Assembly: GCA_009914755.4 (NCBI GenBank)
Contig: CP068257.2
Coordinates: 39,808,001 to 39,872,000 of the forward strand
Source: the human T2T-CHM13v2.0 reference genome, Homo sapiens
Direction: 5' to 3'
DNA length: 64,000 bases
The translations under genes were made by a program, and so were the position numbers. Positions within the stretch are counted from its first letter, which is position 1. Each line of letters opens with the position of its first letter. Positions 39,443-46,826 of this stretch are shown in pieces. The notes under the pieces were generated by a model. It did no database searches. It saw only the letters and a list, made by a program, of their open reading frames with translations, and was not told the DNA's origin.

Positions 39443-39900
39443 CCACACTCTGTCCAGCCCCGTAGACGTGCACGCACACTGTCTGCCCCCGTTCCCGGGT
39501 AGCCACTGGACTGACGACTTGAGTGCTCAGTAGTCAGACTGGATAGTCCGTCTCTGCTTATCCGTTAGCCGTGGTGATTTAGCAGGAAGCTGTGAGAGCA
39601 GTTTGGTTTCTAGCATGAAGACAGAGCCCCACCCTCAGATGCACATGAGCTGGCGGGATTGAAGGATGCTGTCTTCGTACTGGGAAAGGGATTTTCAGCC
39701 CTCAGAATCGCTCCACCTTGCAGCTCTCCCCTTCTCTGTATTCCTAGAAACTGACACATGCTGAACATCACAGCTTATTTCCTCATTTTTATAATGTCCC
39801 TTCACAAACCCAGTGTTTTAGGAGCATGAGTGCCGTGTGTGTGCGTCCTGTCGGAGCCCTGTCTCCTCTCTCTGTAATAAACTCATTTCTAGCAGACACT
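39443..39900 (+). other. MX1: MX1 3'UTR (cleavage site approximate, ~39895-39905)
   Basis: AATAAA at 39876-39881, ~20 nt before the presumed cleavage site. Confidence 0.8.
39876..39881 (+). terminator. MX1: MX1 polyadenylation signal AATAAA
   Basis: tctctgtAATAAActcatttctagcag. Confidence 0.8.
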
Positions 39901-40198
39901 GCTCTGCCATGTTTTGTATTTTGGCGAGAAGCCTGAAACTAGCAGGTAGGGTGCAGTGGAGCAGTGGACGTAAAGCTGCCCTCTGTGGCGGGGCCAGGTA
40001 GGAGCAAGCAAAAGAACAGGGTCTGATGATTTCCTAGAGACTGGAGGGAAATGGGGGAACACACTTTAAAAAATGAAACAATATGAAGCCAACGGTGCTA
40101 ACTTAATAATGTGCATTGATCAAATGTCCAATTTGTTGAGTCACTGGGCACCTGGCATGGAGTTGAAAAGCACAAGGCCCAGTCAGGAAGCGGTTGCC

Positions 40199-40493
40199 AG
40201 GCCAGGTGCGATGGCTCACGCTGTAATCCCTTCACTTTGGGAGGCCGAGGCGGGTGGATCACCTGAGGTCAGGAGTTCGGGACCAGCCTGACCAATATGG
40301 TGAAACCCTGTCTCTACTAAAAATACAAAAATTAGCTGGGTGTGGTGGCGTGTGCCTATAGTCCCAGCTACTCAGGAGGCTGAGACATGAGAATTGCTTA
40401 AACCCGGGAGGTGGAGGTTGCAGTGAGCCCAGATCGTGCCACTGCACTCCAGCCTGGGCTACAGAGCAAGACTCCATCTCAGGGAAAAAAAAA
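40199..40493 (+). mobile_element. Alu
   Basis: ggccaggtgcgatggctcacgctgtaatcccttcactttgggaggccgaggcgggtggatcacctgaggtcagg... Confidence 0.9.
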
Positions 40494-42633: not shown

Positions 42634-45043
42634 ATCCATGTGAGATGTGACTTGCTCCTCCTTGCCTTCCACCGTGATTGTGAGGCCTCCCCAGCCATGT
42701 GAGACTGCAAGTCCAATAAACCTCTTTCTTTTGTAAATTGCCCAGTCTTGGGTATGTCTTTATCAGCAGCGCAGAAATGGACTAATACAGTAAATTGGTA
42801 CCAGTAGAGTGGGGCACTGCTGTAAAGATACCTGAAAATGTGGAAGCAACTTTGGAACTGGGTAACAGGCAGAGGCTGGAACAGTCTGGAGGGCTCAGAA
42901 GAAAACAGGAAAACGTGGGCAAGTTTAGAACTCCCTAGAGACTTGTTGAATGTCTTTTTTTTTTTTTTTTAATTAGATAGAGTCTCTTTCTGTTGCTTAG
43001 GCTGGAGTGCACTGGCACAATCTCAGCTCACTGGAACCTCCACTTCCCTGGTTCAAGCAATTCTCCTGCCTCAGCCTCCTGAGTAGCTTACAGTAGATCA
43101 TGGGCACCTACCATCATGCCTGGCTACTTTTTGTATTTTTGTAGAGATGGGGTTTCACCATGTTGGCCAGGCTGGTCTTGAACTTTTGACATCAGGTGAT
43201 CTGCCTGCCTTGGCCTCCCAAAATGCTGGGAGTACAGGGGTGAGCCACCACGCCCAGCCTTTTGAATGGCTTTGACAAAAATGCTGATAATGATATGGAC
43301 AATGAAATTCAGGCTGAGGTGCTCTCAGATAAGAGATGAGGAACTTGTTGGTAACCGGAGCAAAGGTTACTCTTGTTATGTTTTAGCAAAGAGACTGGTG
43401 GCATTTTGCTCCTGCCTTAGAGATTTGTGGAACTTTGAACTTGAGAGAGATGATTTAGGGTATTTGGTGTAAGAAATTTCTAAGCAGCAAATCATTCAAG
43501 TAGAGACTTGGGTGCTGTTAAAGGCATTCAGTTTCAAAAGGGAAACAGCATAAAAGTTTGGAAAAGTTGCAGCCTGACAATGCAATAGAAAAGAAAATCC
43601 CATTTTCTGAGTAGAAATTCAAGTCAGCTGCAGAAATTTGCATAAGTAATGAGGAGCTGAATGTTAATCCCCAAGACAATGGAGAAAGTGTCTCCAGGGC
43701 ATGTCAGAGGTTTTCACAGAAGCCCCTCCCATAACAGGCCCAGAGGCCTAGGAAGAAAAAGTGGTTTCATGGGCCAGGCCCAGGGTCCTTGTGCTGTGTG
43801 CAGCCTAGAGACTTGATGCCCTGCATCCTAGCCACTCCAGCCATGGCTGAAAGGGGCCAAAATAGAGCTTGGGCTGTGGCTTCAGAGGTTGCAAGCCTTA
43901 AGCCTTGGCAGCTTCCATGTGATGTTGAGCCTGCCAGTGCACAGAAGTCAAGGATTGAGATTTGGGAACTTCTGCCTAGATTTCAGAAGATGTATGGAAA
44001 CGCATAGATGCCCAGGCAGAAGTTTGCTGCAGGGTGGGGCCCTTATGGAGAACCTCTGCTAGGGCAGTGCAGAAGGGAAATGTGGGGTTGGAGCCCCTAC
44101 ACAGTCCCTACTGGGGCACTGCCTAGTGGAGCTGTGAGAAGAGGGCCACCATTCTCCAGACCCCAGAATGGTAGATCCACCAACAGCTTGCACCATGTGC
44201 CTGGAAAAGCTGCAGACCCTCAACACCAGCCCATGATGCAGCCAGGAAGGAGGCTATACCTTGCGAAGTCACAGAGGTGGAGCTGCCCCAGACCATGGGA
44301 ACCCACCTCTTGCATCAGTGTGACCTGGATATGACAGATGGAGTCAAAGGAGGTCATTTTGGTGCTTTAAGATTTGACTGCCCTGCTGGATTTTGGACTT
44401 TTAAGGGGCCTGCAGCCCCTTTATTTTGGCCAATTTCTCCCATTTGGAATGGCTGTATTCACCCAATGCCTGTACCCCCGTTGTATCTAGGAAGTAATTA
44501 ACTTGCTCTTGATTTCACAGGCTCATAGGTGGAAGCAACTTGCCTTGTGTTGGATGAGACTTTGGACTGTAGACTTTTGACTTAATGCTGAAATGAGTTA
44601 AGATTTTGGGGGACTGTTGGGAAGACCTGATTGGTTTTGAAATGTAAAGATACGAGATTTGGGGGGTGCAGGGGCAGAATGATATGGTTTGGCTCTGTGT
44701 CCCCACCCAAATCTCATCTTGTAGCTCCCATAATTCCCATGTGTTGTGGGAGGGACCTGATAGGAGATAATTGAATCATGGGGGTGGGTCTTTCCTGTGC
44801 TGTTTTTGTGATAGTGAATGGGTCTCACAAGATCTGATGGTTTAAAAAATGGGAGTTTCTGTGCACAAACTCTCTCCCTGCCTGCTGCCATCCATGTAAG
44901 ATGTGATTTGCTCTTCCTTGCTTTCTGCCATGATTGTGAGGCCACCCCAGCCATGTGGAATTGTAAATCCAATAAACTTCTTTCTTTTGTAAATTGCAGT
45001 CTTGGGTATGTCTTTATTAGGAGCATGGAAACAGACTAATAGA
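42634..45043 (+). mobile_element. Partial MaLR (THE1-like) provirus: truncated 5' LTR (42634-~42790), internal region, and complete 3' LTR (44680-45043), interrupted by an antisense Alu at 42954-43259
   Basis: LTR ends ..gtctttatcagcagcgcagaaatggactaatacaGTAAATTGGTACCAGTAGAGTGGGG.. (LTR/internal junction). 3' LTR tgatatggtttggctctgtgtccccacccaaatctcatcttgtagctcccataattcc...ggaaacagactaatag. Confidence 0.7.
42954..43259 (-). mobile_element. Alu, antisense, inserted into the MaLR internal region
   Basis: poly-T ..gatagagtctctttctgttgcttaggctggagtgcactggcacaatctc...ggggtgagccaccacgcccagcc. Confidence 0.9.
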
Positions 45044-45242
45044 ATAATAAGAAGGAGTCATTTGAGGGACCTCTCCAACAGGACAGGCTGCAGGAACTGA
45101 GGGCACCAACCACAGGAGCACCAAGTCTGGCCTTGCCTCACCTTTGGTCCTCTGACCAGCAGCCTCAACATCACCCCCTTATAAGGAAATGGAGGCTGGT
45201 CCTACTCACCAGGCAGAACTTCAAAGATGCAGTGGTTACTTT

Positions 45243-46826
45243 GAAAAAAAAATCGCATAATTTATTTGCATGATATTCATTTTCACAATTGAACTTTACA
45301 GTTTAAAAAAGATACAAAAAAAGACAAACAGTTGTTCACATAAATAAGAAGGGGCAATAAAGAAGGAAGACGTTTTCACCATTACAACACCTTTTAGGAT
45401 GTGTCTTGGGGAGCAAGCACCTTACAGTGCCAACTGTTTCCAAGGTCCCTGGGAATGCTGCTCTCTACAGAGGCATGTGCACAGACGGATCCTGCAAATG
45501 GGATTGCAAGACTTTCCATTTCAAGGTTAAGTCCTAGCTGTAGAATCATTCATTTCATTCTTGCAAACCAGCCTGCTTGGCCAGGAGGCAGAACCATGGT
45601 AGAGTAGTGCTCATGGTTATGGCACTTGGCAATGCAAAAGGGACCCTTCCCCTGGTTGGAAACCCACAGCATTGGAAGGGACCACAGAGAGTCCAAAACA
45701 AAACACATCTTTCTCTTCTTCGCCGCCACCATGGGCACTTTGCTTCAGCACATTCATTTATAGAACGTTAAGTCAGGAGCCAGTCATTTTGTCAAAGCAG
45801 CTGAAATAGGCCACCACTCTTACTTGGCAAAGATGATACAGTTTCAAAGAGTTAAATGAAGGTGGACTACTTGGAGACATCAAAAGCTAAGTTTCCAGGA
45901 GCACTGAGGTAGCAATGTGTAGAAACATAACATGGAAACAGTGTACCTTAAACTGAGCATCCTTGATTTCCCCCATGGACCTCAATTTCCAGTGACTAGC
46001 AGGCCTGAAGAGGCCAACATGGTGCCAGACTTGGCGCCCTGCCAGGACCAAGGGGCATGTGCACTCTCCAGGGTGCTAGGAGCAGGGTCAGGGAGGATGA
46101 GGAGGAAGGCTGAGTCTCCCTCCCAGGAGCCCCACCCAATGTGCAGGTGGAGACCTGCACCAGGAGTGCTCAGGGCAAGTTCCTTTTCAATTGCTTCCCT
46201 CGCACCAAGGGCACTGTCTATATTCTCACCCCATAAGAACAAAAATGTTTCTGTTCCCCTTACAAGTGACTACCACGTCACCACCCATGAAGGGCTGGTC
46301 CCTTTATTTCTGGCCACCATCCAGGGCTGCTAAGGCTCTAAGAACCCATCAGCAAAATCCCCTTGTGGAGAGGTAGGCTGGGGACACTACCAAGTGGCCC
46401 CAGAGGGCAGCCGCTGCAGGTGCCACCTGGCTGTCTCCCTTTCCATGTCTCTCCTTTTTCATCTCAAGTCATCCAGCAGCTGAGAGGTGACAGCTCCATG
46501 CTCATCCAAAATTGGCCCCTGGAAAGGACTCAGCAGGAAGATCTCAATGGGGCAGCCTCCACCCCTCTCCTCCACACTTGACCGCCAGTGCCCACAACCA
46601 GCCGGCCATCACCCCTTGCGGACAAGGGGTTAGGGAGAGCAGGCTGGGCAGGGGAGCCACTGCAGCCTGCACAGAATGGCAGAGAGTGCCAAAGCCAGAC
46701 AAGTTCACTGTTTAATAAAAATGAAGTGACCTCTGAATCATCTCTAAGAGTAAATCATGCACGGGGAAGCAAAACCAGCCCCATTGTTTTCTTGTAAAAC
46801 GACGTCAAGGACGAAGACCATGTGGA
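45243..46826 (-). other. TMPRSS2: TMPRSS2 3'UTR (last exon, noncoding part); cleavage site approximate
   Basis: Continuous with the terminal CDS at 46827-46838. Minus-strand AATAAA at 45261-45266 with cleavage expected ~20 nt further 3' on the minus strand, at plus ~45243. The ~1.6 kb length fits the ~3.2 kb mRNA. Confidence 0.7.
45261..45266 (-). terminator. TMPRSS2: TMPRSS2 polyadenylation signal (AATAAA on the minus strand)
   Basis: Plus strand ..gcataatTTATTTgcatg..; reverse complement caAATAAAttatgcgatttttttttc. Confidence 0.65.

What the first reader, a model, noticed from the sequence alone, without database searches (positions are those of the whole stretch)
39900..45243. Convergent tail-to-tail arrangement of MX1 and TMPRSS2 with only ~5.3 kb between their poly(A) sites, occupied by a MaLR provirus remnant
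MX1 is massively induced by interferon. Read-through past its AATAAA (39876) would run antisense into the TMPRSS2 3'UTR and last exons, giving potential transcriptional interference or dsRNA formation. The spacer is largely a THE1-like provirus (42634-45043, same strand as MX1, with its own LTR AATAAA at ~44972) plus Alus. The biological pairing is notable: an antiviral restriction factor immediately next to a viral-entry protease. The arrangement predicts IFN-dependent antisense coverage of the TMPRSS2 3' end.
Basis: inference. Interest (0 to 1): 0.5.

Follow-up and report, generated by a model that had tools for sequence, protein, structure and literature searches.

The report
MX1 and TMPRSS2 tail-to-tail spacer
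The human antiviral gene MX1 and the virus-activating protease gene TMPRSS2 do end facing each other about 5.3 kb apart across a stretch of old transposon debris, but this layout is already documented, and the idea that interferon makes MX1 transcription run backwards into TMPRSS2 remains untested.

Summary
MX1 ends on the + strand: stop 39440-39442, AATAAA 39876-39881, GU-rich element 39910-39924. TMPRSS2 ends on the - strand: stop 46829-46827, AATAAA 45266-45261, 3' end about 45243. The gap is about 5.35 kb. About half of it is repeats: one sense Alu, and a 5'-truncated THE1/MaLR-type element (42627-45047, same strand as MX1) carrying an antisense Alu.

The arrangement is not new. The Mx locus flanked by TMPRSS2 is conserved mammalian synteny, and 'TMPRSS2/MX1' is a named COVID-19 risk locus.

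The functional idea cannot be settled from sequence. MX1 has a canonical strong poly(A) signal. Three more sense-strand AATAAA hexamers, two of them in LTRs, lie before TMPRSS2. The one published comparison I found shows reads downstream of MX1 in wild-type influenza A infection but not with an NS1 effector-domain mutant. That points to blocked 3' processing, not induction alone, as the cause of read-through. No paper in the library links this to TMPRSS2.

Most likely this is an ordinary convergent gene pair whose spacer serves as a termination zone. Antisense coverage of TMPRSS2 is expected mainly when termination fails. Low interest; already known.

The parts
39212..39442 (+). MX1 last coding exon (EASKRISS...AQFPG, stop TAA 39440-39442)
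   Evidence: 100% identity over 76 residues to PDB 3szr/3zys, human MxA.
39443..39898 (+). MX1 3'UTR (about 455 nt) up to the likely cleavage site
   Evidence: Sequence read. AATAAA at 39876-39881, with CA dinucleotides at 39893-39898.
39876..39881 (+). MX1 poly(A) signal AATAAA
39910..39924 (+). GU-rich downstream element TGTTTTGTATTTTGG of the MX1 poly(A) site
   Evidence: Read directly. One search gives 60% G+T in the 40 nt downstream.
40197..40493 (+). Alu element, sense relative to MX1, with an A-rich tail at 40485-40493
   Evidence: both monomers hit Rfam Metazoa_SRP below threshold (E 8e-15 and 2e-11); 19 other copies in the window.
40494..42139 (.). Non-repeated part of the spacer (GC 0.52-0.59). 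It contains one near-consensus ISRE, AATTTCAATTTCCC, at 41700-41713.
   Evidence: no other copy in the window. ISRE-like motif; no ORF over 110 aa here.
42140..42400 (+). Possible solitary retroviral LTR. On the + strand the order is CCAAT, TATTTAAA, a degenerate AATACA, then a U5-like T-rich stretch.
   Evidence: Read by eye only. No second copy in the window. Family not identified.
42627..42793 (+). 5' LTR remnant of the THE1/MaLR-type element (only the last ~167 bp), with AATAAA at 42715
   Evidence: 84% identity to 44883-45047; hexamer.
42794..44680 (+). Internal region of the THE1/MaLR-type element. It is non-coding and is interrupted by an Alu.
   Evidence: It lies between the LTR repeats. 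The longest ORF is 108 aa.
42943..43263 (-). Alu inserted in the opposite orientation inside the THE1 interior. With the Alu at 40197-40493 it forms an inverted pair.
   Evidence: I1-I3: 76-84% complementary arms. Metazoa_SRP hit on the - strand; predicted duplex -438 kcal/mol against -151 for shuffled partners.
44681..45047 (+). Full-length 3' LTR of the THE1/MaLR-type element (starts TGATATGG), with AATAAA at 44971 and a T/GT-rich downstream stretch
   Evidence: full-length copies at 34049-33685 and 16442-16084 (69-75%); hexamer, 68% G+T downstream.
45013..45018 (-). Second minus-strand AATAAA, 250 nt beyond the main TMPRSS2 site and inside the antisense LTR. It is a possible distal TMPRSS2 poly(A) signal.
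   Evidence: Its use is not shown here.
45261..45266 (-). TMPRSS2 main poly(A) signal AATAAA, with two upstream UGUA motifs and a U9 run downstream
45243..46838 (-). TMPRSS2 last exon: codons ADG, stop at 46829-46827, then about 1584 nt of 3'UTR
   Evidence: acceptor AG at 46840-46839; the spliced C-terminus is 100% identical to TMPRSS2.
48419..48571 (-). TMPRSS2 penultimate exon (GDSGGPLV...DWIYRQMR)

Best explanation
This is an ordinary convergent pair of human protein-coding genes at 21q22.3. The 5.3 kb between their poly(A) sites is a termination zone made largely of primate transposon insertions.

Shown here:
- MX1 ends at a canonical AATAAA with a strong GU-rich downstream element.
- TMPRSS2 ends at a canonical AATAAA on the other strand.
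- The spacer has no convincing gene of its own.
- The spacer carries three extra sense-strand AATAAA hexamers, two of them LTR poly(A) signals, ahead of TMPRSS2.

Inferred from established knowledge of cleavage/polyadenylation-coupled termination: after interferon induction most MX1 transcripts are cleaved at 39.9 kb. Polymerase is then released within a few kb, so only a thin tail of nascent transcription reaches 45.2 kb. Substantial antisense coverage of the TMPRSS2 3'UTR and last exons should appear when 3' processing is inhibited while MX1 is active. Examples are influenza A NS1, HSV-1, and osmotic or heat stress. Published RNA-seq shows reads downstream of MX1 in wild-type influenza infection but not with the NS1 mutant.

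Not shown: that such transcripts lower TMPRSS2 expression or form dsRNA with it.
For: - Gene ends and identities.
- Poly(A) signal census on both strands. Plus-strand AATAAA hexamers are at 39876, 42616, 42715 and 44971 before the TMPRSS2 end.
- Repeat make-up of the spacer.
- No ORF over 142 aa, and no Rfam family at gathering score in the spacer.
- MX1 is one of four genes used to illustrate reads downstream of the 3' end in wild-type influenza A infection. These reads are absent with the NS1 184-188 mutant (PMC8546537).
- Reviews describe read-through of induced interferon-stimulated genes during influenza infection (PMC8866245).
- The two copies of the same LTR family inside MX1 introns are both antisense to MX1. 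That fits the known selection against sense LTR poly(A) signals within genes, and suggests these signals are functional enough to matter.
Against: - No RNA data could be examined here, so the actual extent of plus-strand transcription beyond 39.9 kb in any condition is unknown.
- The 5.3 kb gap lies within the range that normal post-poly(A) transcription can cover (up to about 10 kb by my recollection of TT-seq and mNET-seq studies). For a gene induced as strongly as MX1, even normal termination could put appreciable antisense RNA over the TMPRSS2 3'UTR.
- The PMC8546537 evidence is one figure, in one cell system. As far as the text says it is not strand-specific, and the distance covered is not stated.
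- Use of the LTR AATAAA hexamers is not shown.
Confidence: 0.62

Rival explanations
1. Interferon induction alone drives enough MX1 read-through to cover the TMPRSS2 3' end in antisense. This lowers or re-shapes TMPRSS2 expression by polymerase collision or dsRNA formation, so the arrangement acts as a built-in antiviral circuit.
For: - The geometry is correct, and the gap is short enough for post-poly(A) transcription to cross.
- There is a precedent for repression by read-through at convergent protein-coding genes: Muniz et al. 2017, Cell Rep, cited in PMC8866245.
- In PMC7968217, minor alleles of TMPRSS2-region SNPs go with higher MX1 in blood and, nominally, lower TMPRSS2 in lung.
Against: - With the NS1-mutant virus no termination defect was seen downstream of MX1 (PMC8546537).
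- MX1 has a strong canonical poly(A) signal, and three back-up sense AATAAA hexamers follow it.
- The lung eQTL did not pass the multiple-testing threshold and was measured in a different tissue from the MX1 eQTL.
- No paper in the library combines MX1 and TMPRSS2 with read-through in this sense, with antisense, or with transcriptional interference.
Confidence: 0.13
2. The link between the two genes is shared cis-regulation. Enhancers or chromatin domains span both genes, which explains eQTLs in TMPRSS2 that affect MX1. Transcription across the spacer plays no part.
For: [quoted passage not shown]
- Synteny of the Mx locus with TMPRSS2 is conserved across mammals (PMC11169552).
- One near-consensus ISRE lies in the unique part of the spacer at 41700-41713.
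Against: - The ISRE-like match is one of ten one-mismatch matches in the window, where about 5.5 matches in all are expected by chance.
- CTCF-like motifs are at chance level.
- No chromatin data were available.
- Conserved synteny does not by itself imply function.
Confidence: 0.15
3. The THE1-type 3' LTR (44681-45047, + strand) acts as an independent promoter. Its transcripts would run antisense into the TMPRSS2 3'UTR 200 bp downstream, without any involvement of MX1.
For: - Orientation and position are suitable.
- From my own knowledge, LTRs of this family are used as alternative promoters elsewhere in the human genome.
Against: - By comparison with my recollection of the family consensus, the TATA-like stretch in this copy reads TTTAAAAAATG rather than TTTTATAAAG. 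This is an inference, not a database test.
- The LTR is old (K2P 0.168 between the two LTRs).
- The LTR has no ISRE or GAS motif.
- No transcript evidence was available.
Confidence: 0.04

Closest known systems
Read-through ('downstream-of-gene') transcription caused by influenza A NS1, HSV-1 or cellular stress
   Same: A highly transcribed gene whose polymerase continues past the poly(A) site into neighbouring DNA. MX1 itself is shown as an example in wild-type influenza infection (PMC8546537). Other induced interferon-stimulated genes behave the same way (PMC8866245).
   Different: Those studies describe a genome-wide defect. None singles out the MX1-to-TMPRSS2 overlap or any consequence for TMPRSS2.
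Repression of a convergent partner by read-through antisense RNA (Muniz et al. 2017, Cell Rep, senescence; cited in PMC8866245)
   Same: The layout is the same: two protein-coding genes tail to tail, with read-through from one giving antisense RNA over the other.
   Different: At MX1/TMPRSS2 neither the overlap transcript nor the repression has been demonstrated. I know that paper only through its citation and from memory.
The 'TMPRSS2/MX1' 21q22.3 COVID-19 susceptibility locus and the conserved FAM3B-MX2-MX1-TMPRSS2 synteny
   Same: The same two genes treated as one locus. The adjacency of an antiviral factor and an entry protease is already remarked upon (PMC7968217; PMC11169552).
   Different: Those papers deal with SNP association, eQTLs and gene order. 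They do not address the tail-to-tail transcription geometry.
MX1-AS1 (ENSG00000228318, formerly AP001610.5 / AP001610.1)
   Same: An interferon-co-regulated antisense transcript at this locus, documented in several interferon-signature studies (PMC9717416, PMC8433181, PMC8122435).
   Different: It is antisense to MX1, that is on the TMPRSS2 strand. It is not antisense to TMPRSS2. I could not place it in window coordinates.

Membership tests
Convergent (tail-to-tail) protein-coding gene pair | Two genes on opposite strands with their 3' ends facing each other | tested here: met
   MX1 runs on the + strand and ends near 39898. TMPRSS2 runs on the - strand and ends near 45243.
Convergent (tail-to-tail) protein-coding gene pair | No other gene between the two 3' ends | tested here: inconclusive
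   There is no ORF over 142 aa and no Rfam family at gathering score. Non-coding transcripts such as lnc-MX1-1 (two exons, 21q22.3) could not be placed.
Read-through antisense regulation at convergent genes | Transcripts of the upstream gene continue beyond its poly(A) site | not testable with these tools
   No RNA data were available. The literature shows reads downstream of MX1 in wild-type influenza A infection but not with the NS1 184-188 mutant (PMC8546537).
Read-through antisense regulation at convergent genes | The read-through RNA physically overlaps the partner gene | not testable with these tools
   It would need strand-specific coverage across 45243-48600. Three intervening sense AATAAA hexamers could stop it earlier.
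Read-through antisense regulation at convergent genes | Partner expression changes in cis as a consequence | not tested
   No paper was found. The only hint is the nominal opposite-direction eQTLs in different tissues.
THE1 / MaLR LTR retrotransposon | Long terminal direct repeats flanking an internal region | tested here: met
   42627-42793 against 44883-45047: 84% identity, K2P 0.168. The 5' LTR lacks its first ~200 bp.
THE1 / MaLR LTR retrotransposon | The LTR belongs to a dispersed family of ~350-370 bp units that also occur as solitary copies | tested here: met
   Full-length copies at 34049-33685 (75%) and 16442-16084 (69-74%).
THE1 / MaLR LTR retrotransposon | Non-autonomous interior without gag/pol/env reading frames | tested here: met
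   The longest ORF in 42794-44680 is 108 aa.
THE1 / MaLR LTR retrotransposon | Match to the curated THE1 consensus (Dfam/Repbase) | not testable with these tools
   No repeat library was available. The family name rests on my recognition of the LTR start TGATATGGTTTGGCT...CCCACCCAAATCTCATC and its end ...GTCTTTATTAG...GACTAATA.
Alu SINE, and inverted-repeat Alu pair | 7SL-derived dimer of ~300 bp with an A-rich tail, in many copies | tested here: met
   Rfam Metazoa_SRP hits below gathering score on both monomers. There are 19 other copies in the window. A- and T-runs are seen at 40485-40493 and 42957-42972.
Alu SINE, and inverted-repeat Alu pair | Two Alus in opposite orientation close enough to pair within one transcript | tested here: met
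   The arms are 76-84% complementary and 2.5-2.8 kb apart. The predicted duplex is far below shuffled controls. Whether they are ever co-transcribed is not known.

The most novel reading that the evidence does not exclude
When MX1 is strongly transcribed and termination is leaky, its read-through RNA crosses the spacer. Leaky termination could come from very high interferon drive, or from infection by viruses that impair 3' processing. The read-through RNA would then do two things. It would cover the TMPRSS2 3'UTR and last exons in antisense and reduce output of the protease that activates influenza and coronavirus glycoproteins. It would also carry an inverted Alu pair (40197-40493 and 42943-43263) that forms dsRNA able to feed ADAR1/MDA5 sensing. 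On this reading the conserved Mx-TMPRSS2 adjacency would be a cis-wired antiviral circuit rather than an accident of synteny.
Probability: 0.07. Interest if true: 0.55.

Novelty: already known. Interest (0 to 1): 0.18.

Why it matters
If MX1 read-through did repress TMPRSS2 in cis, airway cells would have a hard-wired link between interferon signalling and loss of a protease needed by influenza viruses and coronaviruses. It could also help explain why variants at this locus associate with COVID-19 severity. As things stand, the layout is standard annotated human genome structure and the coupling is a reasonable but untested idea. The value of this finding is a cheap, specific prediction that existing strand-specific RNA-seq data sets could settle.

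Tried and rejected
- **Literature.** I searched for MX1 + TMPRSS2 with readthrough, read-through, antisense/convergent, transcriptional interference, and DoG terms. Nothing links the two genes through transcription.
- **lnc-MX1-1.** It looked like a possible spacer transcript, but the papers give only '21q22.3, two exons, 1.1 kb', so I could not place it.
- **AP001610.5.** I recalled it as an interferon-induced lncRNA here. It turns out to be MX1-AS1, antisense to MX1 and not to TMPRSS2.
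- **Primary papers.** I tried to read Heinz 2018 and Zhao 2018 for interferon-only controls, but they are not held. Bauer 2018 mentions neither gene.
- **Regulatory motifs in the spacer.** There is no exact ISRE. One near-consensus and one core-only ISRE-like site were found, which is weak given the window-wide background. GAS motifs and CTCF-like motifs are at chance level.
- **Other scans.** The GC-skew profile downstream of either poly(A) site is only modest, up to about +0.19. The bacterial promoter/terminator scan is irrelevant and at chance. Rfam finds nothing above threshold in the spacer.
- **A remembered annotation.** I recall that the Ensembl MX1 gene span in GRCh38 extends about 10.9 kb past the canonical end, to roughly window 50754. 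I looked for a plus-strand poly(A) hexamer there and found none, so this memory is uncorroborated and carries no weight.
- **Searches not run.** I considered using the large protein search and contig look-up to find assembled MX1 cDNA contigs that extend past the poly(A) site. I rejected it because the Alu 300 bp downstream would break any assembly, so the result could not show read-through reaching TMPRSS2.

Full report
**What is in the sequence**

The window is human chromosome 21q22.3. The + strand exon 39212-39442 translates to EASKRISS...RRRLAQFPG followed by a stop. This is 100% identical over 76 residues to the C-terminus of human MxA in PDB 3szr and 3zys.

On the - strand, an exon runs from 48571 (after an AG acceptor) to 48419 (before a GT donor) and encodes GDSGGPLV...DWIYRQMR. 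A last exon starts at 46838 and encodes ADG and a stop at 46829-46827. The spliced 54-residue peptide is 100% identical to TMPRSS2 chains such as 7xyd and 7meq.

This places all MX1 coding exons at 12726-39439 (+) and TMPRSS2 residues 190-492 at 60830-46827 (-), mostly at 100% identity. An exact ISRE, AGTTTCGGTTTCAT, sits at 1222-1235, about where the MX1 promoter should be. The window therefore holds the whole MX1 gene and the 3' half of TMPRSS2.

**The two gene ends**

- **MX1.** A canonical AATAAA lies at 39876-39881, 434 nt after the stop. CA dinucleotides follow at 39893-39898, and the GU-rich element TGTTTTGTATTTTGG is at 39910-39924.
- **TMPRSS2.** A canonical AATAAA lies at 45266-45261 on the - strand. 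Two UGUA motifs lie in the 60 nt upstream and a U9 run follows immediately, which fits an end near 45243. The 3'UTR is about 1584 nt.
- **The gap.** It is about 5345 bp. This agrees with the hg19 RefSeq coordinates as I remember them (MX1 end 42,831,141; TMPRSS2 start 42,836,478; 5,337 bp). That figure is memory, not a tool result.
- **A second site.** Another minus-strand AATAAA at 45018-45013 could serve as a slightly more distal TMPRSS2 site.

**Anatomy of the spacer**

- **Alu, + orientation, 40197-40493.** Both monomers give sub-threshold Rfam 7SL hits. There are 19 other copies in the window.
- **Unique DNA, 40494 to about 42140.** It has no other copy in the window and no ORF over 110 aa.
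- **Possible solitary LTR, about 42140-42400.** It reads like a retroviral LTR in + orientation. I judged this by eye only.
- **LTR element, 42627-45047, + orientation.**
  - It has a 167-bp remnant of the 5' LTR (42627-42793).
  - It has a non-coding interior (42794-44680), interrupted by an Alu in - orientation (42943-43263).
  - It has a complete 3' LTR of about 365 bp (44681-45047).
  - The two LTR copies are 84% identical (K2P 0.168). That implies roughly 38-84 million years, depending on the rate assumed.
  - The LTR belongs to a dispersed family. Two solitary copies lie in MX1 introns at 34049-33685 and 16442-16084, both antisense to MX1.
- **Family name.** No repeat library was available to confirm it.
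- **Share of the spacer.** This element plus the free Alu make up about 51% of the spacer, so 'about half' is more accurate than 'largely'.

**Does the sequence favour read-through into TMPRSS2?**

- **Further sense-strand signals.** On the + strand, after the MX1 signal, AATAAA hexamers occur at 42616, 42715 (5' LTR remnant) and 44971 (3' LTR). The two LTR sites are followed by T/GT-rich sequence. More occur at 45356, 46714, 48796 and 49062, inside TMPRSS2. A polymerase that misses the MX1 site therefore meets three more candidate sites before reaching TMPRSS2.
- **Orientation of the LTR copies.** Both intronic copies of the same LTR family are antisense to MX1. This is the pattern expected if sense-oriented LTR poly(A) signals are harmful inside genes, and it argues indirectly that they can work.
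- **Other features.** GC skew downstream of the MX1 site is only mildly positive, at most about 0.19. There is no ISRE or GAS motif in the THE1 LTR. CTCF-like motifs are at chance level.
- **Weighing against this.** By my recollection of nascent-RNA studies, 5.3 kb is within the distance normal post-poly(A) transcription can travel (a few kb typically, up to about 10 kb). A very strongly induced gene could therefore put some nascent antisense RNA over the TMPRSS2 3'UTR even with normal termination.
- **dsRNA potential.** Any plus-strand read-through RNA would contain the two Alus in opposite orientation. Their arms are 76-84% complementary, and the predicted duplex is far more stable than shuffled controls. 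It would be double-stranded in part even without TMPRSS2 RNA.

**What the literature adds**

- **The adjacency is well known.**
  - Andolfo et al. name a 'TMPRSS2/MX1 locus' for severe COVID-19. [quoted passage not shown]
  - The same minor alleles show a nominal, non-significant association with lower TMPRSS2 in lung (PMC7968217).
  - Mx genes flanked by TMPRSS2 and FAM3B are described as conserved synteny across mammals (PMC11169552).
- **MX1 read-through is documented.**
  - An mBio paper uses MX1 as one of four example genes. [quoted passage not shown]
  - It states that no such deregulation is seen with the NS1 184-188 effector-domain mutant (PMC8546537).
It points to blocked 3' processing rather than induction as the cause.
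  - The evidence is limited. It is one figure, no strand information is given in the text, and the distance covered is not stated.
- **General background.** A review notes read-through of induced interferon-stimulated genes in influenza infection. It also cites Muniz et al. 2017 for gene control by read-through at convergent genes (PMC8866245).
- **Nothing on TMPRSS2.** No paper in the searchable library links MX1 read-through to TMPRSS2.
- **A known antisense RNA on the other strand.** The interferon-co-regulated antisense RNA at this locus, MX1-AS1 (ENSG00000228318), is antisense to MX1 and not to TMPRSS2.

**Verdict**

The feature is real and correctly described, but it is standard, annotated and already discussed genome structure.

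The most likely account is an ordinary convergent gene pair whose transposon-filled spacer serves as a termination zone. Meaningful antisense transcription over TMPRSS2 is expected mainly when termination is impaired by viruses or stress (confidence about 0.6).

It is possible but has no support, and one published observation counts against it (about 0.13). Shared cis-regulation without any role for read-through is a separate possibility (about 0.15). An autonomous LTR promoter is unlikely (about 0.04).

The prediction is specific and could be checked cheaply in existing strand-specific data. That is the main value of the finding.

Noticed in passing
window 54571-57306: A 2.7-kb G-rich minisatellite, about 136 copies of GAGGGGGTGAGTGAGGGGGT. 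GC is 0.63 and GC skew +0.65 to +0.69 over 54-58 kb. It lies in the TMPRSS2 intron between the exons at 58173-58123 and 54208-54023. The G-rich strand is the template strand for TMPRSS2 and the non-template strand for any plus-strand transcription, so it is prone to G-quadruplex and R-loop formation. It could act as a barrier about 14.7 kb downstream of the MX1 poly(A) site.
   Followed up: partly
window 41700-41713: A near-consensus ISRE, AATTTCAATTTCCC (13 of 14 against AGTTTCNNTTTCNY), in the non-repeated part of the spacer. A core-only site, TTTCATTTTC, is at 42277-42286 inside the possible LTR. Window-wide, such one-mismatch matches are only about twice the chance level, so this is a lead and not a finding. 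It could mark an interferon-responsive enhancer or the start of an antisense transcript.
   Followed up: partly
window 34049-33685 and 16442-16084 (- strand): Two solitary LTRs of the same family as the spacer element lie in MX1 introns. Both are antisense to MX1, the orientation bias expected from selection against sense LTR poly(A) signals inside genes.
   Followed up: partly
MX1 gene body, position in the window not determined: The literature describes MX1-AS1 (ENSG00000228318; AP001610.5 / AP001610.1). It is an interferon-signature lncRNA 'directly overlapping antisense to MX1', that is on the same strand as TMPRSS2 (PMC9717416, PMC8433181, PMC8122435). Two prostate-cancer lncRNAs, lnc-MX1-1 and AP001610.9 (minus strand, linked to TMPRSS2), also map to this neighbourhood. 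None could be placed in window coordinates.
   Followed up: partly
window 1222-1235: An exact ISRE, AGTTTCGGTTTCAT, on the - strand. It lies about 50 bp upstream of where the MX1 transcription start should be if my remembered RefSeq gene length is right. This is the expected MX1 promoter element.
   Followed up: no
window 21678-21857: A 29-bp tandem repeat, 6.2 copies at 95% match, TCGGTGAGAATGGGGGAGCCCGCCTGTGC. It begins exactly at the 3' end of the MX1 exon that ends near 21682, so the first unit overlaps the splice donor region.
   Followed up: no
window 42973-38972, - strand: The reciprocal geometry. After the TMPRSS2 site, minus-strand poly(A) hexamers occur at 45018, 44425 and 42973 (the last in an Alu tail). 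There are none until 38972, which is beyond the MX1 last exon. TMPRSS2 read-through that passes 42973 would therefore cover the MX1 3'UTR and last exon in antisense. This could matter in androgen-stimulated prostate cells.
   Followed up: no
window 42140-42400: A sequence that reads like a solitary gammaretrovirus-type LTR in + orientation: CCAAT, TATTTAAA, a degenerate AATACA, a T-rich U5-like part, ending ...CCAGTAACA. It has no second copy in the window. The family is not identified.
   Followed up: no
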